Origin: Thermoplasmata archaeon
Lineage (GTDB): Archaea > Thermoplasmatota > Thermoplasmata > Thermoplasmatales > GCA-001856825
DNA length: 64,000 nucleotides
Direction: 5' to 3'
NCBI GenBank assembly: GCA_021797915.1
Contig: JAJZYT010000005.1
Span: forward strand, 10,043-74,042
Part shown: positions 16,899-32,823 of the stretch, one piece after another
Numbering within the stretch: position 1 is the first letter of the stretch
Layout: each line of letters begins with the position of its first letter
Program-made: the position numbers and the translations under genes
The notes under the pieces: model-generated
The model's input: the letters and a program-made list of their open reading frames with translations, nothing else
The model's database searches: none
Told to the model about the DNA's origin: nothing

Positions 16899-16958
16899 TT
16901 TGGATTATCCTAGAGGCCTGCGGAGCCTCAGACCTGGGTTCGAATCCCAGCTCGGGCG
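16884..16958 (+). tRNA. tRNA-Arg (anticodon GCG)
   Basis: Acceptor GCCCGAG/CTCGGGC, anticodon stem GAGGC/GCCTC with loop CTGCGGA, and T-arm CTGGG-TTCGAAT-CCCAG. No CCA is encoded. Confidence 0.85.
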
Positions 16959-17181: not shown

Positions 17182-18144
17182 CTACCTTCCGACAGATATC
17201 ACAATTGTGTCTCCCCTTGAGACTTTTTCAAAAACTGCAGATACTGTGACCGTGCCTGACTCGGACCCTGTCCTCTTAACAATCAACGGATCAATGACTT
17301 TAAATCCATCCATCATCCTTTTCTTGACTTCAGCGTCAGTTCCTCTTTGAACCACACAGTATATCTTCAGGAAGTCCACGTTAGAAGAAATGAGCAGCTT
17401 AATTGGATCTTTATCAAATTGATAACGGTAATTCAAGAAGAGATTCTTTTCGTCCATTTTATGCAGCGGTTTATTCAAAGTAATTGTGAGTCCTGTCTGT
17501 CCTGCAAAGGAGTATACAATGTTTTCCTTCGACAAAGGGATACTTCCAGTCTCATCGAAGGCAATCAAATTTATCTGATCAGGAGAATCAACGACTCCAA
17601 CTGGAAGTGGCAGAGGCATCCCAGTTACAATTTTAAGCCCTGAATTTACAACGTGGGCGAATACTGCAACAGAAGGTACCTCTTTAGTGAAATCGAAAGC
17701 TACGGACATCGTGCTCACCTTCGTGTCTTGTGCGGATGGGTCTTCTGTTTTCCTACTATAGTAGTATGAACTTCCTTCTGTCCTTCGGTTGATGAGATCG
17801 AGTTTCAATAGCTTCTTGATGTTCCTGTGGATTGTAGTAGGACCTATCGGTCTGCCATAGACATTTTCGAGCATTGACTTTATATCTTTGAACCTAAATT
17901 CCTTCCCATTCATTCTCTTGTAAACGATCTCCTGAAGAGAATCTGCGATGGAATTGTTTGAGATTGAATTAAGTCGACTGTCATATCCAATGACAACATC
18001 TTTTCTAAAAAAGTGCGACGTGCCGTCTGAATGAATGAATCGAGCATAATGGTAAGTTTTTCCCTTGGACTTTGTGACATAATTTATCTTTCTCGCCTGC
18101 CCGCCGCACACTTGGCACTCGCTTTGAATGGATTTTCGGCCCAT
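17182..18144 (-). CDS. Cassette 1, protein B: CCHH zinc-knuckle + winged-helix-like + beta-rich C-terminal domain; family unknown
   Basis: CQVCGG..x..FIHSDGTSHFF, then FRFKDIKSMLE..TIHRNIKKLLKLDLINRR. It aligns end to end with 29726-30658. Confidence 0.75.
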   Translation of the reverse strand: MGRKSIQSECQVCGGQARKINYVTKSKGKTYHYARFIHSDGTSHFFRKDVVIGYDSRLNSISNNSIADSLQEIVYKRMNGKEFRFKDIKSMLENVYGRPIGPTTIHRNIKKLLKLDLINRRTEGSSYYYSRKTEDPSAQDTKVSTMSVAFDFTKEVPSVAVFAHVVNSGLKIVTGMPLPLPVGVVDSPDQINLIAFDETGSIPLSKENIVYSFAGQTGLTITLNKPLHKMDEKNLFLNYRYQFDKDPIKLLISSNVDFLKIYCVVQRGTDAEVKKRMMDGFKVIDPLIVKRTGSESGTVTVSAVFEKVSRGDTIVISVGR

Positions 18145-18189: not shown

Positions 18190-19161
18190 TCATACGACTG
18201 ACTTATCGAGAGTCCACTTGAGCTGCAGGACCGAAAATGCCTCTACGTCTCTTAATGAAATGCTGTGAATATACTTCCATTTTGGGGATTCACTCTCCGC
18301 CAAGCGATTCGTAAGGTCTTGGGTTTCATTTCTGGAGGAAGAGGTTAAGGACGCAATCAAATTGATCGGGTTGTTACCAGAAATGGTAAAATCAAGTCTC
18401 GTCATGTTAGTGGCCGACCAAATTGCGAAGTTCTGTTTCGTTTCTGGGACATAATATTCAATTCTCATTTTTCTTCTCTCTCCTGGCAAGAGGGGAATTG
18501 GGAATCTCATAAGCACCCTCTTCTCCAGAGGAGTATCTTCAAGAAGAGTTACTTTTAGATCCTTCGAATTAGAAAAGTCGAATGCCTTGTATTTCAATTC
18601 TGTGAAAGTTATACCAGTATCCGCAGTAATTCTGAATGGCATAAAGGAAATAGACCATGCGTGATCATTCCTAATCTCATACGAAAACGAGTGCTTTCTG
18701 AACATGCCGTCATTTAGTACATCTCCTAGGAAAATTTCAATTGTATCGAATACGAAGCTAAGTCTTTTCTTATCCATAGTATTGATATAAAAAAGACTCC
18801 TCCCTCTCTTTTGCTTCTCTACTATTCCTGCTTTTTCTAATTTGTCTAGCGCATACTGTATTGAAGTGAATCCTAAGTTTGAATATTTTTGAGCAAGATA
18901 TTTTCTAACGTCGATTATTTGAAAGTCTCCGGAATTAAAGGTCTGAGAGTTTAGTAAACCTATTAACGCATCTTCAAGTTCTCCCTTTTTTATCATCCGA
19001 GAACCTGCTGAGTTTATGTTTAAATAATGAACTTTTCCTTCATGATGGTACACTAAGTATTCATAACGATTTCCTTTTCGATTCGTCGTCCAGGAATGAG
19101 TGACCCTCGCTTTGAAACCGCATATGGGACAAACTCCCTCTTCAAAAGAACGCACCATCAA
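18190..19161 (-). CDS. Cassette 1, protein A: CCHH zinc-knuckle + winged-helix-like + beta-rich C-terminal domain; family unknown
   Basis: EEGVCPICG..YHHEGKVHY, then ..IQYALDKLEKAGIVEKQKRGRSLFY. It aligns end to end with 28712-29668. Confidence 0.75.
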   Translation of the reverse strand: MMVRSFEEGVCPICGFKARVTHSWTTNRKGNRYEYLVYHHEGKVHYLNINSAGSRMIKKGELEDALIGLLNSQTFNSGDFQIIDVRKYLAQKYSNLGFTSIQYALDKLEKAGIVEKQKRGRSLFYINTMDKKRLSFVFDTIEIFLGDVLNDGMFRKHSFSYEIRNDHAWSISFMPFRITADTGITFTELKYKAFDFSNSKDLKVTLLEDTPLEKRVLMRFPIPLLPGERRKMRIEYYVPETKQNFAIWSATNMTRLDFTISGNNPINLIASLTSSSRNETQDLTNRLAESESPKWKYIHSISLRDVEAFSVLQLKWTLDKSVV

Positions 19162-19224
19162 ACGATATTAACATATAGTATAAAAATTAGAAAAAATGTA
19201 GGATAGTTAGAAAGAATGATTGGT

Positions 19225-19320
19225 CTATCCGCCACCAAAGCTTGCCCCGCTCAAAGCATGGGCAATTGCGAAGTAAGCGACGCTTCCAAAAGCAATCACC
19301 AAAGATATCAGTTCAAACAT
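19225..19320 (-). CDS. Cassette 1 micropeptide: 31 aa, single TM helix, C-terminal GGG (not in the ORF track as such)
   Basis: MFELISLVIAFGSVAYFAIAHALSGASFGGG*. A G-rich SD-like GGGGG lies ~9 nt upstream of the ATG. A positional and compositional counterpart is at 28555-28656. Confidence 0.5.
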   Translation of the reverse strand: MFELISLVIAFGSVAYFAIAHALSGASFGGG

Positions 19321-19371: not shown

Positions 19372-19393
19372 GAGTTCGAAAGTTTTCGAACTC
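19372..19393. promoter_or_regulatory. Cassette 1 palindromic operator candidate
   Basis: GAGTTCGAAA-gt-TTTCGAACTC, with 10-bp perfect arms, lies 52 nt upstream of the micropeptide ATG. It matches the cassette 2 site with compensatory arm changes. Confidence 0.55.
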
Positions 19394-19477
19394 TCTAATA
19401 ATGTTGAATTACCCCCCACGAATATTGAAAAGAAATGGAATCTGACCCCTCAAGTACGATAGCTGGACTACGAGGGA

Positions 19478-19675
19478 CCGCGCAGCAAGAGTATGAGGTA
19501 TCAAGGAATGGTAATATAGCTGCATTAGCGGTAGGAGAGGATCTAGGGCTTGGGAAAGGCATCTGTCGCGGGAACTTATCCCCCTCCCACGACGGAATGC
19601 CTACCCATAACTTGTGGTCTAATAGCAATAGTCTCAAGAAGCTAAGTTGGACTATGGTTTTAGACTTAAGGGTAG
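19478..19675 (+). ncRNA. Candidate structured RNA segment inside the cassette 1 spacer (strand uncertain)
   Basis: Nested helices by eye: 19601-06/19670-75 (CTACCC/GGGTAG), 19617-22/19660-65 (GTCTAA/TTAGAC) and 19628-33/19650-55 (ATAGTC/GACTAT). Also 19478-86 pairs with 19519-31, and 19558-68 with 19590-601. Long ORFs on both strands suggest the lack of stops is compositional. Confidence 0.2.
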
Positions 19676-19852
19676 CTTGGGAAATGTCAAACCCTACCGG
19701 TTTAGCGGATAAAACGAGAATAAAATCAAAACCGTTTATCGTCAAGCCCATGAAAGGTGTAGAAAGAAGCGATTTGATATACCAAAATTTTAAGACTGGG
19801 GAGGTTGGGTCAAGGGACCTGGAATTGCGGAATACAAAGGAGGAAAGAGAAC

Positions 19853-20287
19853 TTGGCAATTGACGAAGTAGTGTTTGCAAATCGTAAACTGCTGAGAGTA
19901 CTGGGAGAGGATAACGAAAGATATAAAGATGACACGAAACTCATGGTTTCGCTGCACAGCATCGAGTTCAGTCATAGAAAAGAAGGCTATCTAGAAGTTG
20001 CAAATGACGTGTTCTTTTCAAACCTCATTTATTTACTGTACATTAAGAAAATAGTTGCTGGAGCGGACCTTGAGACCGCTAAAGAAAAGAACAAGTCTGT
20101 CTTGATCAAAGAACTAGAAAGGAAGAAATCCTTGGTTCTGAAAAGGTCCTCTGTTCGTTCTACAGATGCTCTTGACTGCGGGAAAACTGACAGAAAACTG
20201 GTACTGTTAAATAAGGCGATTTTCATCCTGAAGCGAGATGAGAAAGAAACTGCATTTGGCGGCTTTGATTTTTCCAGGATAGTTTAG
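19853..20287 (+). CDS. Cassette 1, protein X: helical ~144 aa protein of unknown family
   Basis: A TTG start at 19853 is preceded by AGGAGG at 19839-19844. It is paralogous to 27633-28040 (VANDVFFSNLIYLLYIKK versus VARNIFISGLPYMLYFKN; ETAKEKNKSVLIKELE versus EKAKEIAKKVLIKHIE). Confidence 0.6.
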   Translation: MAIDEVVFANRKLLRVLGEDNERYKDDTKLMVSLHSIEFSHRKEGYLEVANDVFFSNLIYLLYIKKIVAGADLETAKEKNKSVLIKELERKKSLVLKRSSVRSTDALDCGKTDRKLVLLNKAIFILKRDEKETAFGGFDFSRIV

Positions 20288-20442: not shown

Positions 20443-21210
20443 CTAGCCTTGACCAATCTTCAGTGCAGCTGTCTTGATCTCCATTATTACTTCTTTGACA
20501 AGCTTCCTTGATTTCTCAAGTTGTACAGATTTGGCTGATACCTCCACCTCAAGGCAAGATTCCCCTTTTTTGCTCAACATCGGATGTGATTTGATGTATA
20601 CTCCCCCATCGTACTTTTTCATAATAGCTGTGATATAAGGAGCTAGAGTTGCCTCAAATACTCCCTTTAATAATACGGACTCCTCAAAATGGAAACTGTC
20701 TTTCAGTTTGATTTCTTCCTCTATGAGTTTTAGCATTGACCGCATTTCCGCAGGCACACCTGGCAGAATGTATATTTTAGTATTTCCAACAACATGGAAG
20801 ATGCCCGGTGCAGAACCTAACTCGTTTTTAACTATCCTCGAGCCTTTGGGTATCAAAGCCATTTTTTCCCTTTCTTTGGACATTTCATGACTCCTACTAT
20901 CAGCTCTGCTCTTTATGATATTATATACTCCTTCATCCAATACCAAAGAAATTTTGAACTCTTCAGCAAACGATGAAACTGTCATGTCGTCAAATGTGGG
21001 CCCAAGTCCACCTGAAGAAACAATGACATCGCACTTCCCTATCAGGGATCTGAACCCTTCTCCAATTTCTTCTTTCACGTCCGGGACAGTCAAAACTCTG
21101 TAGACCTCATAACCCGAAAAGTAGAGAAAACGGCCTATTTCAGCCGCATTCGTGTTCACCGTTTTTCCTTTCAGAATCTCATTTCCTATAGTAAGTATAC
21201 AAGCCCTCAT
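20443..21210 (-). CDS. CinA-like / MoCF-biosynthesis (MoaB/MogA-fold) domain protein
   Basis: MRACILTIGNEILKGKTVNTNAAEIG...SSGGLGPTFDD. Confidence 0.8.
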   Translation of the reverse strand: MRACILTIGNEILKGKTVNTNAAEIGRFLYFSGYEVYRVLTVPDVKEEIGEGFRSLIGKCDVIVSSGGLGPTFDDMTVSSFAEEFKISLVLDEGVYNIIKSRADSRSHEMSKEREKMALIPKGSRIVKNELGSAPGIFHVVGNTKIYILPGVPAEMRSMLKLIEEEIKLKDSFHFEESVLLKGVFEATLAPYITAIMKKYDGGVYIKSHPMLSKKGESCLEVEVSAKSVQLEKSRKLVKEVIMEIKTAALKIGQG

Positions 21211-21397
21211 TATCTCGATATATTTAGCAGAAAGATATTGGTTTCTGTATTTCGAAACTGCACAGAAGCACGAATCTTGCTAATTTTGTTTATAGGGTTC
21301 CTTTTCCAGTCCACAGCTCGTTTTTCAATACGTCTATTTTGGATTGTTTAAATACTTTTGAAGTAAAAGTTTTATAACTAAAATAATTCTCTGAGAG

Positions 21398-23119: not shown

Positions 23120-23550
23120 AGAATGAATATGCTCTCATCCTTGACCAGCTTACTTCAATGAGAAAACTGAGAAAAAAGATATTGGACGACATAAATGCGA
23201 ATCTGAAAGAAATGAACTCTAGAGATTTCATAGTGTTACACAACATATGCAAGAGCATAAAGGAGCCAACAATGAGTGACCTCTCCGAGTCTTCTGGTCT
23301 TTCTAATGCACTCATAACTTCGTCCATCGATAGTCTTGAGGGCCTCAAGCTCGTGAAGAGGAAAAGGGGACCAGACCGGAGAAGCTATGTCTTGAAACTC
23401 ACAGCTGATGGGATCGCTAAGTGCAAGGAAATGGAGAAATTGAAGTACAGCAGCATCAACTCCATCTTCAGCAGCATGACTGGTGAAGACATTGCAACCC
23501 TCAAAGAGATTCTAAAAAAGTTGAATGAATTGATGGAGAAGTATACTTGA
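23116..23550 (+). CDS. MarR-family transcriptional regulator
   Basis: ATGA overlap with the MFS gene. Winged helix: ..MSDLSESSGLSNALITSSIDSLEGLKLVKRKRGPDRRSY. Confidence 0.85.
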   Translation: MKNEYALILDQLTSMRKLRKKILDDINANLKEMNSRDFIVLHNICKSIKEPTMSDLSESSGLSNALITSSIDSLEGLKLVKRKRGPDRRSYVLKLTADGIAKCKEMEKLKYSSINSIFSSMTGEDIATLKEILKKLNELMEKYT

Positions 23551-23570
23551 CCTCTGGAGAACTCCTTTCA

Positions 23571-24551
23571 TCAAGATAAAGCGTTTATGAGTGAAGGGAT
23601 TGACTCCTCGTAGAGATATTCCAGCCCGAAGTGTCCTTCGTCAAATTCTTTGTAATCGTGTTTTACTTTGTGCTTATTCATTAGTTCACTCATTCCCTTC
23701 ATTCCAATGTTTATCGAGAATTCGTCTCTGTTACCTACCTGCAGGATCACTTTCTGTTGCCGAAGACTGTCTAAACGATTTTCAAGATTTCGTAGTGGGT
23801 CAAGGAGAAGCCATCTGTTCCAAACGTCCTGTCTGAAGGTATGATATTTTAAGTCGAAAGGCAGGTCGAATCCAATCTTTGACTTATGGTTCGGGGAATA
23901 GAAAGCTGCCATCGCAAGGACATTCATCACACCGAAGTCCAGGTTATCGGGATGAGGCTTTTTATTAAAATATTTCAGAAATTCTTGCGGGTTCATTTTT
24001 TCGAGTTTTGTGATTCCTGAAGCAAAGTCTCTCACGTAACAATACTCGAATCCTGAATCTCCAGAAACATCCACAAATCCACCAAAAACATCAGGATGCT
24101 TTGTTGCAAGATTATAAGAACCAAACCCGCCCGATGATTTTCCAAAAAGACCTATCTTCCTGTTTCCATACTTGCGTTTTATAAGACCCACAACATCATT
24201 CACTATGAAGTCCTCATAATTCCCCACGGCAGAGGAATTGACAAACTGATTGCCGTAGTAAGAGGTCATTGTATCCGGTAAGAGTATAATGAATGAGCTT
24301 GACTTCTTCTCTGAAATAGTTTCGAGAGCTCTGAAGAAATCGTGCCCTGTATATGACCGATTTAAGAAGCTATTTGAGCTCCCAAAAAATCCCGCAAGAC
24401 CGATCAATGCAGGAGTAGATTCTTTAACATTTCTTTCGAGCACGATTATCTCCCGCCTTACTGGGTCTTTTAGGATATTGTCTTTAAGGCTTTTCCCCAC
24501 AATTTCTAACTTCTTTACTTCAAAACGTTTTCTCCCTAAAGTAACGGGCAT
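23571..24551 (-). CDS. Alpha/beta-hydrolase esterase (putative esterase family)
   Basis: GxSxG-type nucleophile elbow GKSSGGFGS. 326 aa. Confidence 0.7.
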   Translation of the reverse strand: MPVTLGRKRFEVKKLEIVGKSLKDNILKDPVRREIIVLERNVKESTPALIGLAGFFGSSNSFLNRSYTGHDFFRALETISEKKSSSFIILLPDTMTSYYGNQFVNSSAVGNYEDFIVNDVVGLIKRKYGNRKIGLFGKSSGGFGSYNLATKHPDVFGGFVDVSGDSGFEYCYVRDFASGITKLEKMNPQEFLKYFNKKPHPDNLDFGVMNVLAMAAFYSPNHKSKIGFDLPFDLKYHTFRQDVWNRWLLLDPLRNLENRLDSLRQQKVILQVGNRDEFSINIGMKGMSELMNKHKVKHDYKEFDEGHFGLEYLYEESIPSLINALS

Positions 24552-24621
24552 GATCCACTATCATTCTGGCGTGAATATCCTTTTCTCACATCGCGTAGGA
24601 GGTGAGAGAGATATTCGGCTG

Positions 24622-25884
24622 CTAGATTATTAATTCTTCCTGATCTACGTTCCTATTCGCGACCCCTAGGTCTGCAACATCGATTTCCACATTCCCGTAA
24701 AGTTTCGCCTTTTCTCTTCCGGAGAATAACGCAGAAGCCAATCTACCTGCTGAATCCGCCTTCATTATGCCACTTCCACTGCTTCCATTTACAACCGAGA
24801 GATTCATGTATTTTTCCAGCACGTATGTTCCATCCATATTGTTCATGGAATAGAAGCCTGCCCAGCTTGCCAGCATGCGTGCGTCGTGAAAGGCTGGTAT
24901 GTATTCTCTTAGGACTGTGTGAAGGTTATTAGAATAATATTCTGCATCAGCGATTGGATCCTCTTCAAGACCGAAAGCTCTTCCTACACCCTCACTGTAC
25001 GATACCCAGAAAGTCTTTGATTTGGGATCAGGTCTAAGGTCAATGGCGGGACCGGGAAGAATAGTGAATGGAAAAATGTCTTCGATTCCGGTAACCCTTC
25101 TTGAAATCATCTTTGAAATCCCGTCACTTTGCAGTTGAAAGACCTGAACTTTTTTAGGTTGTGTGAAGGCATCAATTCCCAGCGGGCTAAGAAGATCACT
25201 GGTCCAGACATCTGTCGCCAGGAGGAACTGATCCGCCGAGATGTCTCCAGCAGACGTGTACAGTGACTCGACCACCTTGTCTTGCCATATGAAAGGCTCA
25301 CCTGGAAAGTTCAACCTGGATCGTGGGGCTAGATTCAACTTTTCCACCTTCGTGTTGAATTTAAACTCTGCTCCCAGTTTATTTAACTGCTGGAAGTAAT
25401 ATGAGGCCAAAAGGTCGGGTTCAAGGATCCCACAATTTTCACCCACTAGACCACCAGAAATATTTCTGAGATTCATTATCTTGCTCGCCTCAGGGTCTGG
25501 TTCAACTTGGATACCAAGATCTGCGATTTCTTCTCTAGTGATTATCTTTGACCTTACTCTCTTTAGAATTTTTTTGACTGCTACCGAATTCAACCTCTCC
25601 TCGTCCATCAAGAACAGGTATCCGTTAGAATGCATTCCGAGATTGAACCCTTTGTCTTGTATATCTTTGTAAAACGAGATCGAAGATGAAGCAAGCTTAT
25701 AATTTGTATCTGAAGTGAAGACGTCCCTGAATGCAGCATCACTCTTCGCAGTATTCCCCTGGGCGTAGGTACTCCATTTGTCAAGAATACAGATTCTCAA
25801 GTCGGGGTTGTCCAACTTGATGTGATAAGCAGATGAGAGCCCTGAAATTCCTGCTCCAACAACGACTAGGTCATACTTCTCCAT
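24622..25884 (-). CDS. FAD-dependent oxidoreductase (DAO family)
   Basis: N-terminal dinucleotide fold YDLVVVGAGISGLSSAY. 420 aa. Confidence 0.8.
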   Translation of the reverse strand: MEKYDLVVVGAGISGLSSAYHIKLDNPDLRICILDKWSTYAQGNTAKSDAAFRDVFTSDTNYKLASSSISFYKDIQDKGFNLGMHSNGYLFLMDEERLNSVAVKKILKRVRSKIITREEIADLGIQVEPDPEASKIMNLRNISGGLVGENCGILEPDLLASYYFQQLNKLGAEFKFNTKVEKLNLAPRSRLNFPGEPFIWQDKVVESLYTSAGDISADQFLLATDVWTSDLLSPLGIDAFTQPKKVQVFQLQSDGISKMISRRVTGIEDIFPFTILPGPAIDLRPDPKSKTFWVSYSEGVGRAFGLEEDPIADAEYYSNNLHTVLREYIPAFHDARMLASWAGFYSMNNMDGTYVLEKYMNLSVVNGSSGSGIMKADSAGRLASALFSGREKAKLYGNVEIDVADLGVANRNVDQEELII

Positions 25885-25950
25885 TTACGAAATGAATTGC
25901 AAACGTTTATTTAACTCTCAGGCAATTGCTGGACTTCTTGGTTTGTTCCA

Positions 25951-26856
25951 TCATAACAGATCCATATTCTTAAGAAGGTGATAGGCAGAAGCGATATCTT
26001 CCAAGCCAATCCCCATTGTCTTGAATATTGTCTTTTTATTTCCTTTATACTTTTGACTTTCTCCAACTACGTCTTTGAACTCAACTGTCTTTCCTCCTTC
26101 GTTTACAAAGTCAGAAATTTCCGAAGATTCCTTGAACGCCTGTTCAAGATGTTCTACTACCACAATATCCGAGCTTCTCATCACAGTTTGTGAAACTTCC
26201 CTGTGAGATAGTACGTTTGCACCTCCAATGTTCAGGTGATAACTTTCAAGAAACGATAGGTCACTTATTAGTGGTTCCTTTGAGGAAGTGATACATGAAA
26301 TAACGTCGGCCCCCTCGAGGACTGATCTCATGTCTTCACTGAAGGAGATATCACAGTGGTACTTTTGTTCCATTTTCTTGACAAACTGTTTTCCATGCTC
26401 GGGAGTACGTGAATACACTCTTATTAGTGAGGGATCGCCTATCTCTAAGATCCCTTCCAGCTGTGTTTCTGCCTGAAATCCAGAGCCAATTAATGAAAAT
26501 ACGGAACATTTGCCATGCAAAATATTAGTTCCAAGTGCAGTGACTGCCCCAGTCCTGACTTGCCCAAGCTTATTGGCCTCTATTACGGCTATCATTTCGG
26601 ACGAAACTGAGTCAAATAACAACACCACAAACCTTGCACCCTCCTTTGTAACAACATAAGTCTTGAACCCCGTAATGTGATATTTGTTCATGTATGCGGG
26701 CATAGTACTTAGCACGCTGGATTCAGAAATAGTGCGATTACGAGAGTCAACTCCCGCAGTATTATTGAAGTATTCCTTAAAGGCATCATTCACTGCATCT
26801 ATTGCCATTTTCATACCAAAGTTTGCTTCAACCTCGTGTTCAGTAATATAATACAT
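25951..26856 (-). CDS. Ornithine cyclodeaminase / mu-crystallin family protein
   Basis: The start is taken at MYYITEHEVE (ATG 26854-26856). Rossmann segment FSLIGSGFQAETQLE. Confidence 0.8.
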   Translation of the reverse strand: MYYITEHEVEANFGMKMAIDAVNDAFKEYFNNTAGVDSRNRTISESSVLSTMPAYMNKYHITGFKTYVVTKEGARFVVLLFDSVSSEMIAVIEANKLGQVRTGAVTALGTNILHGKCSVFSLIGSGFQAETQLEGILEIGDPSLIRVYSRTPEHGKQFVKKMEQKYHCDISFSEDMRSVLEGADVISCITSSKEPLISDLSFLESYHLNIGGANVLSHREVSQTVMRSSDIVVVEHLEQAFKESSEISDFVNEGGKTVEFKDVVGESQKYKGNKKTIFKTMGIGLEDIASAYHLLKNMDLL

Positions 26857-26966
26857 CCAGAGCGTAATTCGTATTCTCTTGATACAATTTACCATAAAGG
26901 CATTTGCAACTTATAGTCGGTGCTATTGGTAATTTGTACTTATTATAAAGACTAAAAATAAGCCAA

Positions 26967-27524
26967 TCAACTTAAAGTGCCGGTTATGGAGCCAATATAT
27001 CCATTGTAAGTAATGTCAATCTGCAGACCTGAAAGTTTCACTGGGGCTCCAGTGGAGTGAAAAACTATGTAAATTATTGCCTGAGATTGGATGTTCGTTG
27101 CACCGTTTGCGGGAATCGCTCCGTTAGAAGACCAAGTGTCTCCGCTGCTCGTGAAAGTGTTCATATAAAGGACTGTCCCATCTGGATTTGTAATTGTAAC
27201 ATTTTCAACTGTCCACCCAACACCGGTGGGTTTGTCACTTCCATTTATCATTTGCATGTGAAATTTTGATGGGTCACTCAGCTTAGAAGGAGTTGCTAAG
27301 TTCAACATTAGCGTTGTCGTATTTGTTCCAAAGGATTCTTCTGTTATGCTTCCAATTAATGGTGAGGGAGTCGTATAGTGTGAGACGAGAATATAAACGG
27401 TTGTTGCCAGTATAACTGTGACTGCAACCATGAGTATAGTGGCGATGACTGGAGATACAGCTTCATCTTCCGCGATTTGAAGTGGCCAAATTTTCTTATG
27501 TGTTTTCCTAACGACATCCTTCAT
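26967..27524 (-). CDS. Archaeal type IV pilin-like protein (class III signal peptide, DUF1628-like N-terminus)
   Basis: ..EDEAVSPVIATILMVAVTVILATTVYILV.., followed by a Thr/Asn-rich beta-type domain. Confidence 0.65.
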   Translation of the reverse strand: MKDVVRKTHKKIWPLQIAEDEAVSPVIATILMVAVTVILATTVYILVSHYTTPSPLIGSITEESFGTNTTTLMLNLATPSKLSDPSKFHMQMINGSDKPTGVGWTVENVTITNPDGTVLYMNTFTSSGDTWSSNGAIPANGATNIQSQAIIYIVFHSTGAPVKLSGLQIDITYNGYIGSITGTLS

Positions 27525-27632: not shown

Positions 27633-28040
27633 TTATGCGCCCCTGAGTATAGTGAGAGCACGTTCGAGTAATTCCAGTCTGATTTCAATACATCTTAATT
27701 CAGTAGGCCCATCGCAGATCAATTCCAAATCTTTGATTCTTTCCCTTCTGTCTTCGATATGCTTTATGAGTACTTTTTTGGCAATCTCTTTGGCCTTTTC
27801 AAAATCATCACTGACACGTCCAATGCTTAGATTCTTGAAGTAAAGCATATATGGAAGCCCTGAAATGAAAATGTTTCGGGCTACTCTATAATAACCCACC
27901 GAGGAATGATCAAATTTCACTTTACTGAAGGAGATTAACAGTTTGAGGTTCTCCCTTTTCCTCCCAGCAGCTCTATTGACTTCAAGGTCATCAAAAAATT
28001 TCGCACTTTCAATGATTTTATTTCTGCACTGCTCTTCCAC
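27633..28040 (-). CDS. Cassette 2, protein X': helical 135 aa paralog of 19853-20287
   Basis: GTG start with an AGAAGG SD-like element upstream. The alignment to X is described under that feature. Confidence 0.6.
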   Translation of the reverse strand: MEEQCRNKIIESAKFFDDLEVNRAAGRKRENLKLLISFSKVKFDHSSVGYYRVARNIFISGLPYMLYFKNLSIGRVSDDFEKAKEIAKKVLIKHIEDRRERIKDLELICDGPTELRCIEIRLELLERALTILRGA

Positions 28041-28331
28041 TTCGAAACCTTCTAATATTATGAATGTTAATATCTTCTAAAATATCAATAATGGATAATC
28101 TCATAAAACCTGATTTACTGAGACTTTCCAGACACGTGTTCTTATTGAAAGATTTTTTGGGTAAGAACATAATAATGAAACGAATTCTGTTAGGCATAGA
28201 TTCTGAAAGTTCTCCTGATTTTCCTGACAATGATATAAAGGCTTGAACTCGTAATTGTCTTTTACCGTGAACATTTGATCATTTGCAGTTTTATTTTCAT
28301 TGTATACGTCATGAGTTCCATCATTAAAGGC

Positions 28332-28358
28332 AGAGAGAGCCCAAATCGGGCTCTCTCT
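28332..28358. other. Perfect 11-bp stem / 5-nt loop hairpin in the cassette 2 spacer
   Basis: AGAGAGAGCCC-aaatc-GGGCTCTCTCT. No T-tract follows on either strand. Confidence 0.6.
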
Positions 28359-28482
28359 TCGATGGCCCCTCCGCTTGAGTGATGAATCAACAGTTCTGCA
28401 TAGACTGCTGAAAGTATTTGCTGTCTTCCCAATCATTACTCTACTATACGTCATACTCTGGTTGGTCTTTAATACCACCAGA

Positions 28483-28503
28483 GAGTTAGAATAACTTTCT
28501 AAC
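28483..28503. promoter_or_regulatory. Cassette 2 palindromic operator candidate
   Basis: AGTTAGAA-taact-TTCTAACT, 10 bp upstream of a TATA box and ~51 nt upstream of the micropeptide ATG. Confidence 0.55.
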
Positions 28504-28513
28504 TTCCCGTTAG

Positions 28514-28521
28514 TATAAAAA
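28514..28521 (+). promoter_or_regulatory. TATA box candidate for the cassette 2 micropeptide/A'/B' transcript
   Basis: TATAAAAA lies 34 nt upstream of the ATG at 28555. A GAGGGAG SD-like element follows. Confidence 0.5.
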
Positions 28522-28554
28522 TATCAGACTGTATTTGTAATTCGAGGGAGAGTA

Positions 28555-28656
28555 ATGATTGAAATATTTACTCTGGCAATCGGACTCGCTTTGAGCGTCT
28601 ATTTTACGTTGATAAACCCCATTATCGAGGGAGGAGTTGCTGCAGGTGGAGGATAA
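28555..28656 (+). CDS. Cassette 2 micropeptide: 33 aa, single TM helix, C-terminal GGG (below the ORF-track cutoff)
   Basis: MIEIFTLAIGLALSVYFTLINPIIEGGVAAGGG*. The SD-like GAGGGAG is 5-11 nt upstream. Confidence 0.5.
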   Translation: MIEIFTLAIGLALSVYFTLINPIIEGGVAAGGG

Positions 28657-28711
28657 GTTCTTCTCTCTTTTTCATTTTCTAACTTTTAATATGCGTTGGG
28701 ATTGTTTGTAG

Positions 28712-29668
28712 ATGACTTATTCTAAAGAAGAGGGGATCTGTCCATTCTGCAAGAGAAAGTCATTCATAACCAGGAAGTGGGTTCTGAACAACTATAAGAC
28801 TAGGTATAGTTACACCATTTATCATCACGATGGGTCCGTCCACTATTCCAATACAACCCCGAATAATGCCAGAACATTCAAGAAGGGGATTATAGAAAAG
28901 GTTTTGATAGAAACCATAAACTCAGAAAATTTCAAAGATGGATTGTTTCTGACGCGGGACATCAAGAAGAGACTCCAAAAGGAGTATCAGGAAATAAGCT
29001 CAGACACTCTTAGAGATAATCTCCACAGGCTAGTTGAGATTGGCATGCTGGAGAAAGTCAGAAAAGGGAGGCAGATCTACTTCCTCAATGCCATATTTAA
29101 GGACAGACTCAGCTATGTTTTCGACTCAGTTAAGTTCTCCCTCGGCGATACAAATGAAGATTCACTATTCAGGAGCCATGTTTCTGTCTATAACATTAGA
29201 AATGACAAAACCTGGCCACTGTATTTTCTGCCGTACCGAATTTTTGGTGATACAGACATTATCTATGATAAAATGAGATTTAAGGCAATTGACTTGACAA
29301 ATAATGAGGACCTAAAGGTTCTACTTATTGAAGACAATCCAAGGGAAAAGAGAATTTTGATAAGACTGAATAGACCTCTCTTCCCGAATGAAAACATGAA
29401 AGTAAGGTTTGATTATGATTGGCAAGAACCTAGGCAGAATTTTGTTTTTACAGCTGCAACTCATATGAACGCATTTGAGATCGTTCTCTCCAGCAACTAT
29501 CCCCTCAAGATTCAGGCATCCCGAACTATTTCTACTATGAACGAGCTCAAGGATCTGTCAAACGAAGTTGTAGGAACCAGGACCAAAAAGTGGAGATTTG
29601 TATATTCCGTGAAGTTGAAATCAATAAGACCATTTTCTGTTCTCCAGTTTAGGTGGAAAAGGACTTGA
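28712..29668 (+). CDS. Cassette 2, protein A': paralog of 18190-19161
   Basis: Matched blocks: EEGICPFCK..YHHDGSVHY; KAIDLTNNEDLKVLLIEDNPREKRILIR versus KAFDFSNSKDLKVTLLEDTPLEKRVLMR; FSVLQFRW versus FSVLQLKW. Confidence 0.75.
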   Translation: MTYSKEEGICPFCKRKSFITRKWVLNNYKTRYSYTIYHHDGSVHYSNTTPNNARTFKKGIIEKVLIETINSENFKDGLFLTRDIKKRLQKEYQEISSDTLRDNLHRLVEIGMLEKVRKGRQIYFLNAIFKDRLSYVFDSVKFSLGDTNEDSLFRSHVSVYNIRNDKTWPLYFLPYRIFGDTDIIYDKMRFKAIDLTNNEDLKVLLIEDNPREKRILIRLNRPLFPNENMKVRFDYDWQEPRQNFVFTAATHMNAFEIVLSSNYPLKIQASRTISTMNELKDLSNEVVGTRTKKWRFVYSVKLKSIRPFSVLQFRWKRT

Positions 29669-29725
29669 AAGTTTTCGAGATATTGTCGGCAACATTCAAT
29701 ATTGTTGGCAAAATGTGTGATTCAG

Positions 29726-30658
29726 ATGCCTAGAAAACCAGCAGAGTCTTTGTGCAAAATTTGTGGGGCAAATGCAACAGTGAAGATCAACTACGCAACG
29801 GGGAGTGGAGGAACAGTTTACTTGTACGAGATTTACACCCACAAGAACGGGACGGTTCATTACTTCAGGCCGGGAAAAGTTTTACAAAAACGGGATGCGT
29901 TCAGTGACTTTGAAGCGACGCTAAGAACCAAGATGAACGATGGAGAGTACAGGTTCAAAGATATAAAGAAGCTTTTTGAATCATTTCGCGGCTCATCAGC
30001 AAGCAACACCATGGTGCAGAGATACATTGAGAAAGGGATGAGGGCAAAACTTATCAGGAAGTCAGTCGAAGACGGGATGATACTTTACTTTAAGGGGAAC
30101 CAGAGAGATTCGCCCAAAGTCGTTAAGATTCAAGAAACATCTGTATCTTATCATATTTCAGACTCAGCAGTGGCAATGTCAATTCTTCTCAAGTTCTTAA
30201 ACGAAGGTGAAAGCCCACTCAACAGGATCCCAATAACTATACCTACGGGGATCATAGACACTATCAGTGAACTTAATATTGAATCGTTCGACAAATTTGG
30301 CAAGATATCGGAGGGAAACATGGAGATAGCATTTTCTTTTACCGGACAGACCGGGATTGGAGTAGGTTTGAGGAGATCCCTGGGTCCTTCTGAGAGTGAT
30401 TTCCTTTTCGTCACCAGTCGATTCACTTTTTCCGAGCATTCACTGAAGTTTGCACTACCACTTGACACAGGTTCACTCAGAATTCATATTACCAAGGAAT
30501 GGGAAAAACCTGTGCACGTCAGAAAACGTTTATTGGATGGTATAAAGGAAACCAACCCCGATAGTGTAAGGAAGGGGTTCTTAAGCGACGGCCTGAGTTT
30601 TGCCGAAGTCGAATTTGGCAAGTCTAGCAAGGGAGAGGCAGTTGTAGTCTCTTGGTAA
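29726..30658 (+). CDS. Cassette 2, protein B': paralog of 17182-18144
   Basis: The start is taken at MPRKPAESLCKICG (compare MGRKSIQSECQVCG). Matched blocks: YRFKDIKKLFE versus FRFKDIKSMLE; FTGQTGIGVGL versus FAGQTGLTITL; VRKRLLDGIK versus VKKRMMDGFK. Confidence 0.75.
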   Translation: MPRKPAESLCKICGANATVKINYATGSGGTVYLYEIYTHKNGTVHYFRPGKVLQKRDAFSDFEATLRTKMNDGEYRFKDIKKLFESFRGSSASNTMVQRYIEKGMRAKLIRKSVEDGMILYFKGNQRDSPKVVKIQETSVSYHISDSAVAMSILLKFLNEGESPLNRIPITIPTGIIDTISELNIESFDKFGKISEGNMEIAFSFTGQTGIGVGLRRSLGPSESDFLFVTSRFTFSEHSLKFALPLDTGSLRIHITKEWEKPVHVRKRLLDGIKETNPDSVRKGFLSDGLSFAEVEFGKSSKGEAVVVSW

Positions 30659-30909: not shown

Positions 30910-31206
30910 ATGATCTTGGATTGGACAACCATACTGAATTTTGCCCTGACTTTCGTCGTAGGACTGCTGTTCGGGCTGGCCATTAAGAAGGGACTGGTGG
31001 CGTTCGTGCTTGCACTCGTTGGCTTCGTCATTGCTGGTTATGTCGGGTTGACTTTCGTTCCTAAGATTTCGTTCAGTTATGAAGTAACTAAGTTTATCAC
31101 TTATGTTGTAACTTATATCCACGACGTTAAGCTAGGGGCAATTGCAGTATCTCTGACAGTTATACTGTTTCTGATAGGCCTTGCAATTGGGCTCTGGAAG
31201 GGATAA
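30910..31206 (+). CDS. Small 3-TM membrane protein, paralog of the C-terminal module of 3771-4304
   Basis: 98 aa with an identical C-terminal ILFLIGLAIGLWKG. Confidence 0.65.
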   Translation: MILDWTTILNFALTFVVGLLFGLAIKKGLVAFVLALVGFVIAGYVGLTFVPKISFSYEVTKFITYVVTYIHDVKLGAIAVSLTVILFLIGLAIGLWKG

Positions 31207-31321: not shown

Positions 31322-32080
31322 TTGAAGAAGGTAATAGAAGAGGAAGCAGTTTCCGAAGTCGTGGGGACCATATTGGTTCTTGCAATAACAGTTGTTTTGT
31401 TCTCTGCAGTTTTTGTTTACGCCCAACAGTTTCCCCTCGCAACTACCTCAAAACAGATCACCGTAGTTCAGCAGCTGTCCTACAATATAGATACACACAC
31501 ACTATTCGAGAATCTTACGGAGAAAACGGGAAGCATCCTATTGAGAAGCGATACGTATTTTGTGGTCCTCATCGACAACCACGAATACTCGACAAACCTT
31601 GCAAACATGCGAGTTAAAAGTCCCTATGAAAATTCCTCTTCGTTATTCGAGCCCGGAGATACAATAACCTGGAACAGTTCGTATGTCGGTGCGACTGTAA
31701 GAGAAAATTCCTCGATCAACTCTATGCTTCTTTATAGACCCTCAAACCAAGTCCTGTGGCAATCCGTGAATAATGTCTCTAGCGGGTTATCCATTTCAGT
31801 CTTCTATGTGACTCCTTCCCCGATAAAAGCAAATGAAACTTTCACTATTTTTGTTCAGGTAAACACTTTTGACCCTAATGGGACAACAGCATATCTGAAT
31901 CTCACTTCACTCTATGAGACGGCTTACAACAAGTCGATGAACATCTATAGTCTGTCAGAAAATAAATTAAATTTCTACTTTGAGGGAATTTCACCTTCCT
32001 CCCTTCCAAGCTCCTCAATGGCAAAGTTGAATGTAACCTGTGATGGCATTTCTGTGAATTCTGAGATTAACCTATCTTGA
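31322..32080 (+). CDS. Archaeal type IV pilin-like protein (class III signal peptide)
   Basis: TTG start. The N-terminus reads ..EEEAVSEVVGTILVLAITVVLFSAVFVYA, and a sequon-rich beta domain follows. Confidence 0.6.
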   Translation: MKKVIEEEAVSEVVGTILVLAITVVLFSAVFVYAQQFPLATTSKQITVVQQLSYNIDTHTLFENLTEKTGSILLRSDTYFVVLIDNHEYSTNLANMRVKSPYENSSSLFEPGDTITWNSSYVGATVRENSSINSMLLYRPSNQVLWQSVNNVSSGLSISVFYVTPSPIKANETFTIFVQVNTFDPNGTTAYLNLTSLYETAYNKSMNIYSLSENKLNFYFEGISPSSLPSSSMAKLNVTCDGISVNSEINLS

Positions 32081-32241: not shown

Positions 32242-32823
32242 GTGCTAGCCGAGCTTGAGGTTCTTGGAGGAATTGGAACTGTTTACGTTCTCGGAGTATT
32301 TGCCTGGACTTTCTTGAAATTCTCAAAAATGAGAAGGCAACTTCTGAAGGCGCCGGTACTCTTTTTTGTGTTTTCTTTGATTTCGATGCTATTCGTTGCA
32401 CTCCTTGGGTCCGATGAATTTTATTTCCTCCCTCTCGTCGCCACCGAGTTTCTGCTGATGTTAACAATCTTCTACAGCTACCTCAAAACGAATGCAATCT
32501 TTCTAAGTGCCCTGGTACTTTCTGCTGGCTCCACAACAGGGAACTGGTTCGTTCCGTACTTCGAAGACATCCTTATGATTCTCTCGATCTACTTCTCACT
32601 GTACATCACGGGGTCATTCTTACAGGCTAAATCTCAGGAAAGTAAAGGCAGTACCATTGTGATGGGGTCGTTCATACTCATGGACTTGTCCCTGGTCCTG
32701 GAAGCATTCTATATTCTGAAGTTCAACAGTTCGTTTATGGAGATCGGTGTTTCGTTATTCGTCGTCTCGGTAATTCTATTCTTGCTTCCTTTTCTTTTGG
32801 GAGGATCATCAAGGAATGCGTGA
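32242..32823 (+). CDS. Polytopic membrane protein (193 aa)
   Basis: Five to six hydrophobic spans. It overlaps the downstream wHTH gene by 8 nt. Confidence 0.55.
   Translation: MLAELEVLGGIGTVYVLGVFAWTFLKFSKMRRQLLKAPVLFFVFSLISMLFVALLGSDEFYFLPLVATEFLLMLTIFYSYLKTNAIFLSALVLSAGSTTGNWFVPYFEDILMILSIYFSLYITGSFLQAKSQESKGSTIVMGSFILMDLSLVLEAFYILKFNSSFMEIGVSLFVVSVILFLLPFLLGGSSRNA

What the first reader, a model, noticed from the sequence alone, without database searches (positions are those of the whole stretch)
27633..30658. Cassette 2: an inverted, anciently diverged second copy of the same module
X' (27633-28040, minus) faces a 33-aa peptide (28555-28656), A' (28712-29668) and B' (29726-30658) on the plus strand. 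Each protein aligns along its whole length with its cassette 1 counterpart, yet by eye well under half of the positions are identical. Example blocks:
- KAFDFSNSKDLKVTLLEDTPLEKRVLMR / KAIDLTNNEDLKVLLIEDNPREKRILIR
- FRFKDIKSMLE / YRFKDIKKLFE
- VANDVFFSNLIYLLYIKK / VARNIFISGLPYMLYFKN

So this is not a recent inverted repeat. It is two long-maintained paralogous systems in mirror orientation, ~7.3 kb apart. Gene order, spacing, the CCHH residues and the upstream palindrome are all retained, which implies selection on the entire arrangement.
Basis: seen in the sequence. Interest (0 to 1): 0.8.

Follow-up and report, generated by a model that had tools for sequence, protein, structure and literature searches.

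The report
Duplicated archaeal micro-peptide and regulator module
An acid-loving archaeon carries two ancient, mirror-image copies of an undescribed four-gene unit (a tiny membrane peptide, two related zinc-finger DNA-binding proteins and a small helical protein) that most likely forms a self-regulating genetic switch whose signal is unknown.

Summary
Cassette 2 (X' 27633-28040 minus; peptide 28555-28656; A' 28712-29668; B' 29726-30658) is a diverged paralogue of cassette 1 (B 17182-18144, A 18190-19158, peptide 19225-19320, X 19853-20287). Identities are A/A' 40%, B/B' 28% and X/X' 33%, all significant.

The mirrored pair, about 7-9 kb apart, recurs in at least five other Thermoplasmatales MAG species. 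A tree puts the duplication before their divergence. A, B and the peptides are under purifying selection (dN/dS 0.0-0.25).

X' is the weak point. Its dN/dS is 0.48, it is absent, a remnant or interrupted in 7 of the 9 relatives whose upstream region is readable, and two lineages have also lost the cassette 2 peptide.

A and B are themselves paralogues: CCHH zinc ribbon, winged helix, then a large beta-sandwich. That beta domain is homologous to a C-terminal domain fused to cyclases and a caspase in other archaea. A conserved palindrome, GTTAGAA-N5-TTCTAAC, lies upstream of each peptide promoter, and a half-site abuts the TATA box of the A gene.

My best reading is an autoregulated sensor/transcription-factor pair that controls a 31-33 aa glycine-tailed membrane peptide. 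No family library, solved structure, phage or plasmid matches it. I rate it an uncharacterised, lineage-restricted regulatory module. The duplication itself is ordinary.

The parts
17182..18144 (-). B (cassette 1), 320 aa: CCHH zinc ribbon, winged helix, then a degenerate beta-sandwich
   Evidence: ORF. 28% identical to B'. The B-family alignment has invariant C10, C13, H39 and H45. dN/dS is 0.16-0.25.
18190..19158 (-). A (cassette 1), 322 aa: CCHH zinc ribbon, winged helix, then beta-sandwich
   Evidence: 40% identical to A'. dN/dS is 0.17-0.18. The recognition helix reads SIQYAL, where other cassettes have [KR] at the third position.
19179..19213 (-). Promoter-like region of A (cassette 1): TTTCTAAC (19206-19213), then TTTCTAAT abutting the TATA box TTTTTATA (19179-19186). 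The ATG lies about 24 nt from the TATA centre, which suggests a leaderless mRNA
   Evidence: Sequence. The block TTTTCTAACTTTTTTATACTATAT is conserved across type 1 cassettes. Promoter function is inferred.
19225..19320 (-). Peptide 1, 31 aa, MFELISLVIAFGSVAYFAIAHALSGASFGGG
   Evidence: Eight species have a 31-codon ORF at the same position. Mean pN is 0.26 and mean pS 0.59. A GGGGGA ribosome-binding motif lies upstream.
19374..19391 (.). Operator-like palindrome of cassette 1, GTTCGAA-N4-TTCGAAC, a variant specific to the window's lineage
   Evidence: Other species have GTTAGAA-N5-TTCTAAC at this position.
19570..19600 (-). Conserved spacer element GGAGGGGGAT inside a short covarying stem (GGA/TCC). 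Function unknown
19853..20287 (+). X (cassette 1), 144 aa, TTG start: small helical protein with no known family
   Evidence: It was detected in every type 1 cassette whose upstream region was available.
27633..28040 (-). X' (cassette 2), 135 aa, GTG start
   Evidence: 33% identical to X. dN/dS is 0.48. Lost or disrupted in most other lineages.
28333..28412 (.). Conserved spacer element: hairpin, invariant TGGCCCCTCC, GTGAnnGATGA, then a second hairpin. Function and strand unknown
   Evidence: Of 19 predicted pairs, 14 keep pairing through changes on both sides. The element is retained even where X' and the peptide are lost. Rfam finds nothing there.
28485..28503 (.). Operator-like palindrome of cassette 2, GTTAGAA-N5-TTCTAAC, ending 10 nt upstream of the TATA box TATAAAAA (28514-28521) of the peptide gene
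   Evidence: Two more differ by one base (ATTAGAA, L005/L009).
28555..28656 (+). Peptide 2, 33 aa, MIEIFTLAIGLALSVYFTLINPIIEGGVAAGGG
   Evidence: Seven species have a 33-codon ORF. Mean pN is 0.27 and mean pS 0.68. It is 100% identical in L001 and L010 despite synonymous changes.
28676..28691 (+). Half-site TTTCTAAC abutting the TATA box TTTTAATA of A'. The ATG lies about 24 nt from the TATA centre, which suggests a leaderless mRNA
   Evidence: Promoter function is inferred.
28712..29668 (+). A' (cassette 2), 318 aa: zinc ribbon (residues 6-47), winged helix (60-126), beta-sandwich (136-318)
   Evidence: AlphaFold2 model with mean pLDDT 83. The family alignment is. dN/dS is 0.09-0.15.
29726..30658 (+). 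B' (cassette 2), 310 aa, paralogue of A' with a degenerate beta domain
   Evidence: dN/dS is 0.10-0.11.

Best explanation
Cassette 2 is the ancient paralogue of cassette 1. Both are copies of a self-contained four-gene regulatory module found only in a small clade of Thermoplasmatales.

**Proposed components.** A and B are cytoplasmic one-component regulators. Each has an N-terminal CCHH zinc ribbon, a winged-helix DNA-binding domain and a C-terminal beta-sandwich input domain. Because they are always adjacent paralogues, they probably act as a hetero-oligomer. A keeps a conserved charged surface or pocket, while B is degenerate there.

**Proposed action on DNA.** The pair would bind the palindrome GTTAGAA-N5-TTCTAAC, which sits just upstream of the BRE/TATA region of the micro-peptide gene. 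That position is typical of archaeal activators. The pair would also bind a TTCTAAC half-site abutting the TATA box of its own leaderless A-B transcript, which would give autoregulation.

**Proposed output.** The main regulated product is a 31-33 aa single-helix membrane peptide with a glycine-rich C-terminal tail. The divergent gene X encodes a helical accessory protein.

**Relation between the two cassettes.** The duplication gave two channels. In most species they share one operator sequence, so cross-talk is likely. In the window's lineage the cassette 1 operator and the recognition helix of A changed together, which suggests the two channels became partly insulated.

**Shown:** paralogy, age, purifying selection, domain architecture, and conservation and placement of the operator.

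**Inferred:** DNA binding to these sites, the A-B hetero-oligomer, the sign of regulation, and the roles of the peptide and of X.
For: **Paralogy and age.**

**Architecture.**
- The AlphaFold2 model of A' has mean pLDDT 83.
- There are weak winged-helix matches at residues 80-130 to Penicillinase_R, FUR, TrmB and ArsR.
- A and B are homologous over 250 columns (hhalign probability 99%).

**Input domain.**
- A profile of the A family detects the beta domain alone (profile positions 134-270/315, E 1e-13 to 1e-4). In those proteins the N-terminal part is a Guanylate_cyc or caspase domain. The named ones come from Nitrososphaeria.
- The same module therefore sits next to three different output domains, as sensor domains typically do.

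**Operator.**
- The 14-base palindrome occurs once upstream of the peptide gene in 18 of the 23 cassettes examined. It sits at the same place even in relatives whose A is about 30% identical.
- By my own estimate, chance would give about 0.002 such sites per 20 kb locus.
- The palindrome lies next to TATA-like boxes, and a half-site abuts the TATA box of A in both cassette types.

**Co-change of operator and protein.** The three cassettes with GTTCGAA have Q where all GTTAGAA cassettes have K or R in the recognition helix.

**Peptide genes are real.** ORF length is fixed, pN/pS is about 0.4 with near-saturated pS, and the peptide start always lies 155-162 nt upstream of the A start.
Against: - Nothing here is experimental.
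- No winged-helix family reaches its Pfam cut-off.
- The operator/recognition-helix co-change is a single evolutionary event.
- The beta domain most resembles the N-terminal domain of M1 aminopeptidases and ribophorin I, whose roles are not signal sensing.
- The fold of X could not be predicted (pLDDT 46).
- The ~500 bp X-to-peptide spacer holds further conserved structured elements that this model does not explain.
- I-plasma keeps A'/B' without the peptide or X', so the peptide cannot be essential for A'/B' to function.
Confidence: 0.62

Rival explanations
1. Peptide-pheromone signalling, working like streptococcal Rgg/SHP. The short hydrophobic peptide would be exported and processed. Its conserved C-terminal part would be re-imported and bound by the beta-sandwich of A (with B as partner). 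That would switch transcription from the palindrome upstream of the peptide gene and give positive feedback. The two cassettes would be two channels, like Rgg2/SHP2 and Rgg3/SHP3.
For: - The peptide gene lies directly next to its putative cytoplasmic regulator, with a palindrome upstream of the peptide promoter.
- The most conserved stretches of the peptide include its C-terminal part (YYTLINP...GGIAQGGG, or FAIVRPLGGAFVGGG).
- The SHP2 pheromone is the C-terminal eight residues, DILIIVGG, and also ends in GG (PMC4436074).
- Paralogous regulator/peptide pairs share one operator in most species.
- A keeps a conserved polar surface in its beta domain.
Against: - The regulator fold is unrelated to RRNPP regulators. 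It has no TPR repeats and no XRE-type HTH.
- The peptides have no basic N-terminus and no K or R at all.
- No exporter, processing protease or peptide importer is conserved next to the module.
- I-plasma keeps A'/B' without peptide 2.
- No peptide quorum sensing is established in archaea (my own knowledge).
Confidence: 0.15
2. Stress or defence module. The hydrophobic micro-peptide would be a membrane-perturbing effector, like a toxin. Its promoter would be gated by A/B, and their beta-sandwich would sense an invader or stress cue. X would be a modulator or antidote.
For: - The beta domain is shared with proteins that carry cyclase or caspase domains, and such outputs are common in conflict systems.
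- Peptides of about 30 aa with a single membrane helix are typical of bacterial type I toxins (my own knowledge).
- X' and peptide 2 show lineage-specific loss.
- The protein family is very small and has diversified.
Against: - PADLOC gives no hit.
- There are no relatives on phages, plasmids or IMG/VR contigs.
- The location is syntenic among housekeeping-type genes across species, not in a variable island.
- Purifying selection is strong and copy number is stable.
- The cyclase-fused relatives are not in obvious defence neighbourhoods.
Confidence: 0.1
3. A and B are not transcription factors. The zinc ribbon and winged helix would serve RNA or protein binding, and the beta-sandwich would be a scaffold or peptide-binding chaperone for the micro-peptide or a membrane complex. 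The palindrome would be bound by some other factor.
For: - The best structural matches of the beta domain are the substrate-facing N-terminal domain of M1 peptidases and ribophorin I, with a weak Ribophorin_I sequence hit for a fused relative.
- All winged-helix hits are below threshold.
Against: - The palindrome travels with the module in every lineage, including distant single-copy ones.
- It changed together with the recognition helix of A.
- No other DNA-binding protein is conserved in the module.
Confidence: 0.1
4. Cassette 2 is a decaying or recently copied inverted repeat, such as a mobile-element remnant.
For: X' shows relaxed constraint (dN/dS 0.48) and is lost in several lineages. 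A tRNA-Arg gene lies next to cassette 1.
Against: - Protein identity between the paralogues is only 28-40%, with saturated synonymous sites.
- A', B' and the peptide have dN/dS of 0-0.15.
- The arrangement is syntenic across species.
- There are no DNA-level repeats and no mobile-element relatives.
Confidence: 0.02

Closest known systems
Archaeal one-component regulators with an N-terminal winged helix and a C-terminal sensor domain (for example the TrmB family)
   Same: - A winged helix is followed by a beta-rich ligand or sensor domain.
- There is a palindromic operator whose position relative to BRE/TATA sets the sign of regulation.
- Paralogues exist within one genome.
- Autoregulation is likely.
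   Different: - The TrmB Pfam match is E 0.087, below its cut-off.
- There is an extra CCHH zinc ribbon.
- The C-terminal domain is unrelated.
- The regulators come as an obligate adjacent A/B paralogue pair.
- A micro-peptide gene is the first regulated gene.
Rgg/SHP (RRNPP) peptide quorum sensing of streptococci, including the Rgg2/SHP2 and Rgg3/SHP3 pair
   Same: - A short hydrophobic peptide gene lies beside a cytoplasmic regulator.
- An inverted repeat lies upstream of the peptide promoter.
- Two paralogous loci share operators.
- The peptide ends in GG (SHP2-C8 is DILIIVGG, PMC4436074).
   Different: - The regulator fold is unrelated: zinc ribbon, winged helix and beta-sandwich instead of an XRE-type HTH with TPR repeats.
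- The peptide has no basic N-terminus.
- No export, processing or import genes are linked.
- The host is an archaeon.
- Nothing has been tested experimentally.
C-terminal beta-sandwich domains fused to signalling enzymes, such as the Ig-like AGS-C domain of CBASS CD-NTases and Pycsar cyclases
   Same: The module's beta domain is homologous to a C-terminal domain fused to class III cyclases and a caspase in Nitrososphaeria. This is the same position that AGS-C occupies in CD-NTase/PycC proteins (bioRxiv 10.1101/2023.05.21.541620).
   Different: - A Pfam scan of the domain returned no AGS-C family, and PADLOC gave nothing significant.
- The fold matches the M1 peptidase N-domain and ribophorin I rather than an 18 kDa Ig domain.
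- The resemblance is one of position, not of demonstrated homology.
N-terminal beta domain of M1 aminopeptidases / LTA4 hydrolase, and ribophorin I (OST1)
   Same: These are the best Foldseek matches for residues 130-318 (E 1.6e-6, TM-score about 0.36 normalised to the query, about 225 aligned columns). The best viral match is also an M1-like aminopeptidase.
   Different: - Sequence identity is only 7-12%.
- There is no catalytic HEXXH domain and no membrane anchor.
- Here the domain is fused to DNA-binding domains.

Membership tests
TrmB / Fur / PadR / ArsR / Penicillinase_R winged-helix regulator families (Pfam) | Match to the family HMM at or above the curated gathering score | tested here: not met
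   The best hits are Penicillinase_R at 21.5 bits against a cut-off of 22.6 (for A), FUR at 16.7 against 23.1, and TrmB at 13.1 against 25.6. NCBIfam hits are all far below their cut-offs.
Winged-helix DNA-binding fold (general) | Three helices plus a beta-hairpin wing, with a recognition helix | tested here: met
   The AlphaFold2 model has H60-70, H81-88, H97-109, E113-118 and E121-126, with pLDDT about 70-85. Weak HMM hits from several winged-helix families map to residues 80-130.
RRNPP / Rgg peptide-sensing regulators | N-terminal XRE-type HTH plus a C-terminal TPR-like helical repeat domain that binds the peptide | tested here: not met
   There are no TPR or HTH_3 hits. The C-terminal domain of the model is all-beta.
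RRNPP / Rgg peptide-sensing regulators | Secreted, processed peptide that is re-imported and binds the regulator | not testable with these tools
   This needs peptide mass spectrometry and binding assays.
AGS-C domain (CBASS/Pycsar cyclase C-terminal sensor domain) | Match to a described AGS-C profile, or presence in a CBASS/Pycsar operon | tested here: not met
   A Pfam scan of the isolated beta domains at E up to 10 gave only Ribophorin_I (E 0.0098) and an unrelated hit. PADLOC gave PycC hits only at E 0.003-0.03, within the cyclase part of the fused relatives. I could not confirm that the library holds an AGS-C model.
M1 aminopeptidase | Catalytic thermolysin-like domain with HEXXH-(18)-E and the GXMEN motif | tested here: not met
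   Only the N-terminal beta domain is matched structurally. There is no Peptidase_M1 hit, and the protein ends with the beta domain.
Known anti-phage defence systems (PADLOC) | Significant match of any component to a defence-system HMM | tested here: not met
   There are only weak winged-helix-type hits (AbiEi E 0.003, CARF/Csa3 winged-helix parts E 0.004-0.015).
Mobile element or virus-borne module | Relatives on phage, plasmid or viral contigs, or flanking integrase or repeats | tested here: not met
   tblastn found no match in plasmids or phages, and none in IMG/VR. The location is syntenic across species.

The most novel reading that the evidence does not exclude
The module could be a ribosomally encoded peptide-signal circuit in archaea, which as far as I know has not been described there. 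The conserved C-terminal part of the 31-33 aa peptide would be the ligand of the beta-sandwich domain of A/B, either after secretion or as a membrane tether. Binding would switch the palindrome-controlled promoter. The ancient duplication would give two channels that are wired together in most species and became insulated in this lineage through a symmetric operator change plus a recognition-helix change. The same beta domain would then be a new family of peptide or ligand sensors, reused with cyclase and caspase outputs in Nitrososphaeria.
Probability: 0.12. Interest if true: 0.9.

Novelty: new variant of a known kind. Interest (0 to 1): 0.5.

Why it matters
Regulation in uncultivated acidophilic Thermoplasmatales is almost unknown, and peptide-based regulation in archaea has hardly been studied.

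- **A compact, testable unit.** The module has an operator, a micro-peptide, two paralogous sensor/regulator proteins and an accessory protein.
- **A natural experiment in regulator evolution.** Two copies share one operator in most species, while in one lineage the operator and the recognition helix changed together.
- **A new input domain.** The beta-sandwich recurs with cyclase and caspase domains in ammonia-oxidising archaea. Finding its ligand would help explain several signalling proteins at once.

If the module is only an ordinary autoregulated transcription-factor pair, its value is mainly in annotation: a new protein family and a real micro-protein gene that gene callers often miss.

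Tried and rejected
- **Family libraries.** Pfam, NCBIfam and PADLOC scans of all seven proteins gave nothing above threshold.
- **Solved structures by sequence.** The PDB search gave only noise.
- **Mobile-element origin.** The plasmid, phage and IMG/VR searches returned no relatives. The viral structure library gave only the M1-like domain.
- **Structure of X.** The model has pLDDT 46, so no fold search was run.
- **A fifth gene in the X-to-peptide spacer.** Long ORFs lie there (19435-19863 plus strand, 19395-19880 minus strand, 28101-28478 minus strand). The first and third, each on the same strand as the adjacent X gene, were compared and show no similarity (E 0.65). The conservation there looks like RNA or DNA hairpins rather than codons.
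- **Known RNA families.** Rfam found only tRNA-Arg in 16-32 kb.
- **Other look-alike sites in the window.** A third operator-like site at 40531 lies inside a 1151-aa ORF. A third GGG-ending mini-ORF at 12772-12837 is antisense to an ATPase gene. I judged both to be chance.
- **dN/dS between the paralogues.** This is uninformative because dS is saturated, so orthologue pairs were used instead.
- **Neighbourhoods of the cyclase- and caspase-fused relatives.** These showed nothing diagnostic.
- **Literature.** A search on these Thermoplasmatales lineages turned up nothing about this module among the titles and abstracts returned. The papers were not read.

Full report
**1. The observation**

The ORF map shows cassette 2 as described:
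- X' 27633-28040 (minus strand, 135 aa, GTG start)
- a 33-aa ORF at 28555-28656
- A' 28712-29668 (318 aa)
- B' 29726-30658 (310 aa, counted from the ATG)

Cassette 1 is its mirror image:
- B 17182-18144 (minus)
- A 18190-19158 (minus)
- a 31-aa ORF at 19225-19320 (minus)
- X on the plus strand

BLASTP results are:

| Pair | Identity | Aligned length | E-value |
|---|---|---|---|
| A/A' | 40% | 315 aa, no gaps | 2e-97 |
| B/B' | 28% | 318 aa | 2e-44 |
| X/X' | 33% | 113 aa | 7e-16 |

A and B are also distant paralogues of each other. The pairwise match covers the N-terminal 130 aa (E 7e-9). A profile-profile comparison gives 99% probability over 250 columns, including the C-terminal domain.

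Two corrections apply. X of cassette 1 starts at the TTG at 19853 (144 aa), because orthologues carry an in-frame stop upstream, an AGGAGG motif precedes the TTG, and database gene calls agree. A of cassette 1 most likely starts at the ATG at 19158.

**2. Organism and distribution**

The window is essentially identical to a contig of a Thermoplasmatales-type metagenome-assembled genome, GCA_027373715.1.

The word-based protein search found only 27 clusters related to A'. Every one that carries an organism name comes from acid-mine-drainage Thermoplasmatales/Thermoplasmatota, including I-plasma.

An exhaustive profile search of 1.84 billion representative proteins found only about 22 proteins matching over most or all of their length. 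The family is therefore very small.

The scan of 185,579 species genomes returned 18 loci. All but one carry Thermoplasmata or Thermoplasmatales titles. The exception, L013, is a 2-kb contig binned as Gammaproteobacteria. Phage, plasmid and IMG/VR collections hold no relatives.

**3. Age of the duplication and selection**

I mapped all eight window proteins onto the loci. The mirrored two-cassette arrangement, with 7-9 kb between the copies, is present in:
- L002 (FK1.bin53, A' orthologue 66% identical)
- L005
- L006
- L009 (I-plasma)
- L010/L015 (IK54, the nearest relative)

Three further genomes carry both cassette types on separate contigs: LL2.bin60, DBS2-4.bin120 and YP3.bin108.

In a neighbour-joining tree rooted on B, the A1 and A2 clades each contain 7-10 taxa. 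A single-cassette hot-spring lineage (L017) branches before the split. More distant single-cassette relatives keep the same gene order (L026/27, L028/29 and L030, where A is about 30% identical).

Nei-Gojobori dN/dS against close relatives:

| Gene | dN/dS |
|---|---|
| A' | 0.09-0.15 |
| B' | 0.10-0.11 |
| A | 0.17-0.18 |
| B | 0.16-0.25 |
| peptides | 0-0.17 |
| X' | 0.48 |

Between the paralogues, dS is saturated. So the duplication is old and the core of both copies is maintained.

The exception is X'. It is absent from L002, L004, L005, L008 and L009. It is a remnant in L006, and in IK54 it is split by a ~2.6 kb insertion that carries transposase-like fragments. The cassette 2 peptide gene has also degenerated in L005 and L009. 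By contrast, X of cassette 1 was found in every type 1 cassette whose upstream region was available.

**4. The proteins**

Pfam, NCBIfam, PADLOC and the PDB sequence search all find nothing above threshold.

The AlphaFold2 model of A' (mean pLDDT 83) shows three parts:
- a beta zinc ribbon at residues 6-47, holding the invariant C10, C13, H39 and H44
- a winged helix at residues 60-126, where several winged-helix families give weak hits
- a large beta-sandwich at residues 136-318

Foldseek matches the beta-sandwich to the N-terminal domain of M1 aminopeptidases/LTA4 hydrolase and to ribophorin I (E about 1e-6, TM-score about 0.36 normalised to the query, about 225 aligned columns).

The A profile also detects this domain alone (E 1e-13 to 1e-4) in proteins whose N-terminal part is a class III nucleotide cyclase or a caspase. 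The named ones come from Nitrososphaeria. They share motifs such as Y-x-W-E-E-P. A domain that recurs next to DNA-binding, cyclase and protease outputs is most simply read as an input or sensor domain.

In the A family this domain holds many invariant charged residues: IRND..WP, ED.P.EKR, PL.P.E and Y.W.EP. In the B family it is poorly conserved. This points to a ligand-competent A paired with a degenerate B.

X is predicted to be helical, but the model is unusable (pLDDT 46).

**5. The peptides**

A small ORF starts 155-162 nt upstream of the A start in nearly every cassette. It has a fixed length of 33 codons in type 2 and 31 codons in type 1.
- Type 2 consensus: M.EIF...GLA.S.YYTLINP...GG[IV][AS][AQE]GGG
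- Type 1 consensus: MFE[LI]I......YFAIV[RH].LGGA[FY][VM]G[GSN][GA]

Mean pN is about 0.26 and mean pS about 0.6-0.68. These are therefore real genes.

Each peptide has one hydrophobic segment of about 19 residues, no lysine or arginine, and a glycine-rich C-terminus.

**6. The DNA sites**

Two more (L005, L009) differ by one base. It always sits just upstream of the TATA-like box of the peptide gene (window 28485-28503, TATA 28514-28521).

A second conserved block lies between the peptide stop and the A start. It is a TTTCTAAC half-site abutting a TATA box, about 24 nt from the ATG. This suggests a separate, leaderless A-B transcript.

In the window's lineage only (window, L015, L016), the cassette 1 palindrome is GTTCGAA-N4-TTCGAAC. 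This is a symmetric change. In the same three cassettes the recognition helix of A reads SIQYAL, whereas all GTTAGAA cassettes have [ST][IL][KR]xxL. That is a single event, so it is only suggestive.

From what is known of archaeal promoters, a site upstream of BRE/TATA fits activation, and a site at the BRE position fits repression. This step is inference.

**7. Mechanism**

The best-supported reading is an autoregulated pair of sensor/transcription factors that control a membrane micro-peptide, duplicated long ago into two channels.

Three variant readings of the peptide's role remain open:
- It is a ligand or pheromone, as in Rgg/SHP. SHP2-C8 is DILIIVGG (PMC4436074).
- It is a membrane tether for A/B.
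- It is a membrane-active effector.

Against an obligatory ligand role, I-plasma keeps A'/B' without the peptide.

**8. Comparison with what is known, and novelty**

The module works like an archaeal one-component regulator, but it fails the membership tests for every named family. It resembles Rgg/SHP in layout but not in fold. Its sensor domain sits where AGS-C sits in CBASS/Pycsar cyclases, but no AGS-C family was returned.

The duplication is ordinary biology. The module itself is an undescribed, lineage-restricted variant of a known kind of system.

**9. Left unexplained**

The ~500 bp X-to-peptide spacers carry conserved structured elements. In type 2 this is two covarying hairpins around an invariant TGGCCCCTCC. 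In type 1 it is a GGAGGGGGAT stem-loop plus other blocks. Their strand and function are unknown, and they persist where X' and the peptide are lost.

Noticed in passing
window 28333-28412; L002-L009 equivalents: Conserved non-coding element in the X'-to-peptide spacer: a hairpin of variable sequence, a T-run, an invariant TGGCCCCTCC, GTGAnnGATGA, then a second hairpin. Of 19 predicted pairs, 14 keep pairing through changes on both sides. It is retained even in I-plasma and YP5, which lack X' and the peptide. Rfam gives no hit and the strand is undetermined.
   Followed up: partly
window 19570-19600 (minus strand) and ~19690-19730: The type 1 spacer has its own conserved blocks. One is GAGGAGGGGGATnnGTTCCTC, with a covarying GGA/TCC stem and a loop identical to the ribosome-binding motif of peptide 1. 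Others are GGTTTAGATTTTAT-N6-TTTTATCGGCTAAACYGAGA and CTTCGCATCAC. The GGAGGGG core is in the opposite orientation to the type 2 element.
   Followed up: partly
window 19374-19391 vs 28485-28503; A residues ~100-108: The cassette 1 operator changed symmetrically (A to C in both half-sites, spacer 5 to 4) only in the window/IK54/LL2 lineage. In the same lineage the recognition helix of A changed from K/R-x-x to Q-Y-A. The half-site at the A promoter of cassette 1 kept the canonical TTCTAA.
   Followed up: partly
L010 6340-8987 (IK54, nearest relative): X' is interrupted by a ~2.6 kb insertion that carries transposase-like ORF fragments and a 315-aa secreted-looking protein. There is also a frameshift within X'.
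   Followed up: partly
window 28041-28055: A hybrid site, TTCGAA-ACC-TTCTAA, directly abuts the start codon of X'. It is conserved in L001 and L010. It could be a cross-regulatory half-site pair or chance.
   Followed up: no
window 16883-16961: tRNA-Arg (GCG) lies 220 nt beyond the end of B of cassette 1. No integrase or direct repeats were seen, and synteny across species argues against an integrated element.
   Followed up: partly
window 26967-27524 (minus) and 31322-32080 (plus): Two archaeal type IV pilin-like genes (Pilin_N) flank cassette 2. The first is adjacent to the X' position in all species examined, and small membrane-protein ORFs lie at 30910-31206 and 32242-32823. A link between the module and the cell surface or pili is possible but untested.
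   Followed up: no
window 20443-27524: The 7.3 kb between the cassettes holds a CinA-like MoCF domain gene, plus ORFs that by my reading of the sequences look like an MFS transporter, a MarR-type regulator and an esterase. It also holds a DAO-family oxidoreductase and an ornithine cyclodeaminase, and a pilin gene. The last three are syntenic in other species. A DAO oxidoreductase also lies near the distant single cassette in L028.
   Followed up: no
P0058, P0063, P0064, P0066, P0070, P0074 (Nitrososphaeria and soil metagenomes): The beta-sandwich of A is homologous to an unannotated C-terminal domain of class III cyclase proteins and one caspase protein. This looks like an undescribed archaeal sensor-type domain with a Y-x-W-E-E-P signature.
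   Followed up: partly
L028 4001-5149; L026 ~800-840: Variants occur in distant relatives. In L028 the A protein has a duplicated N-terminal zinc ribbon (382 aa). In L026/27 the peptide ORF is only 12 codons long (MVNTTPGIWIGG), while the palindrome and the half-site/TATA are kept.
   Followed up: no
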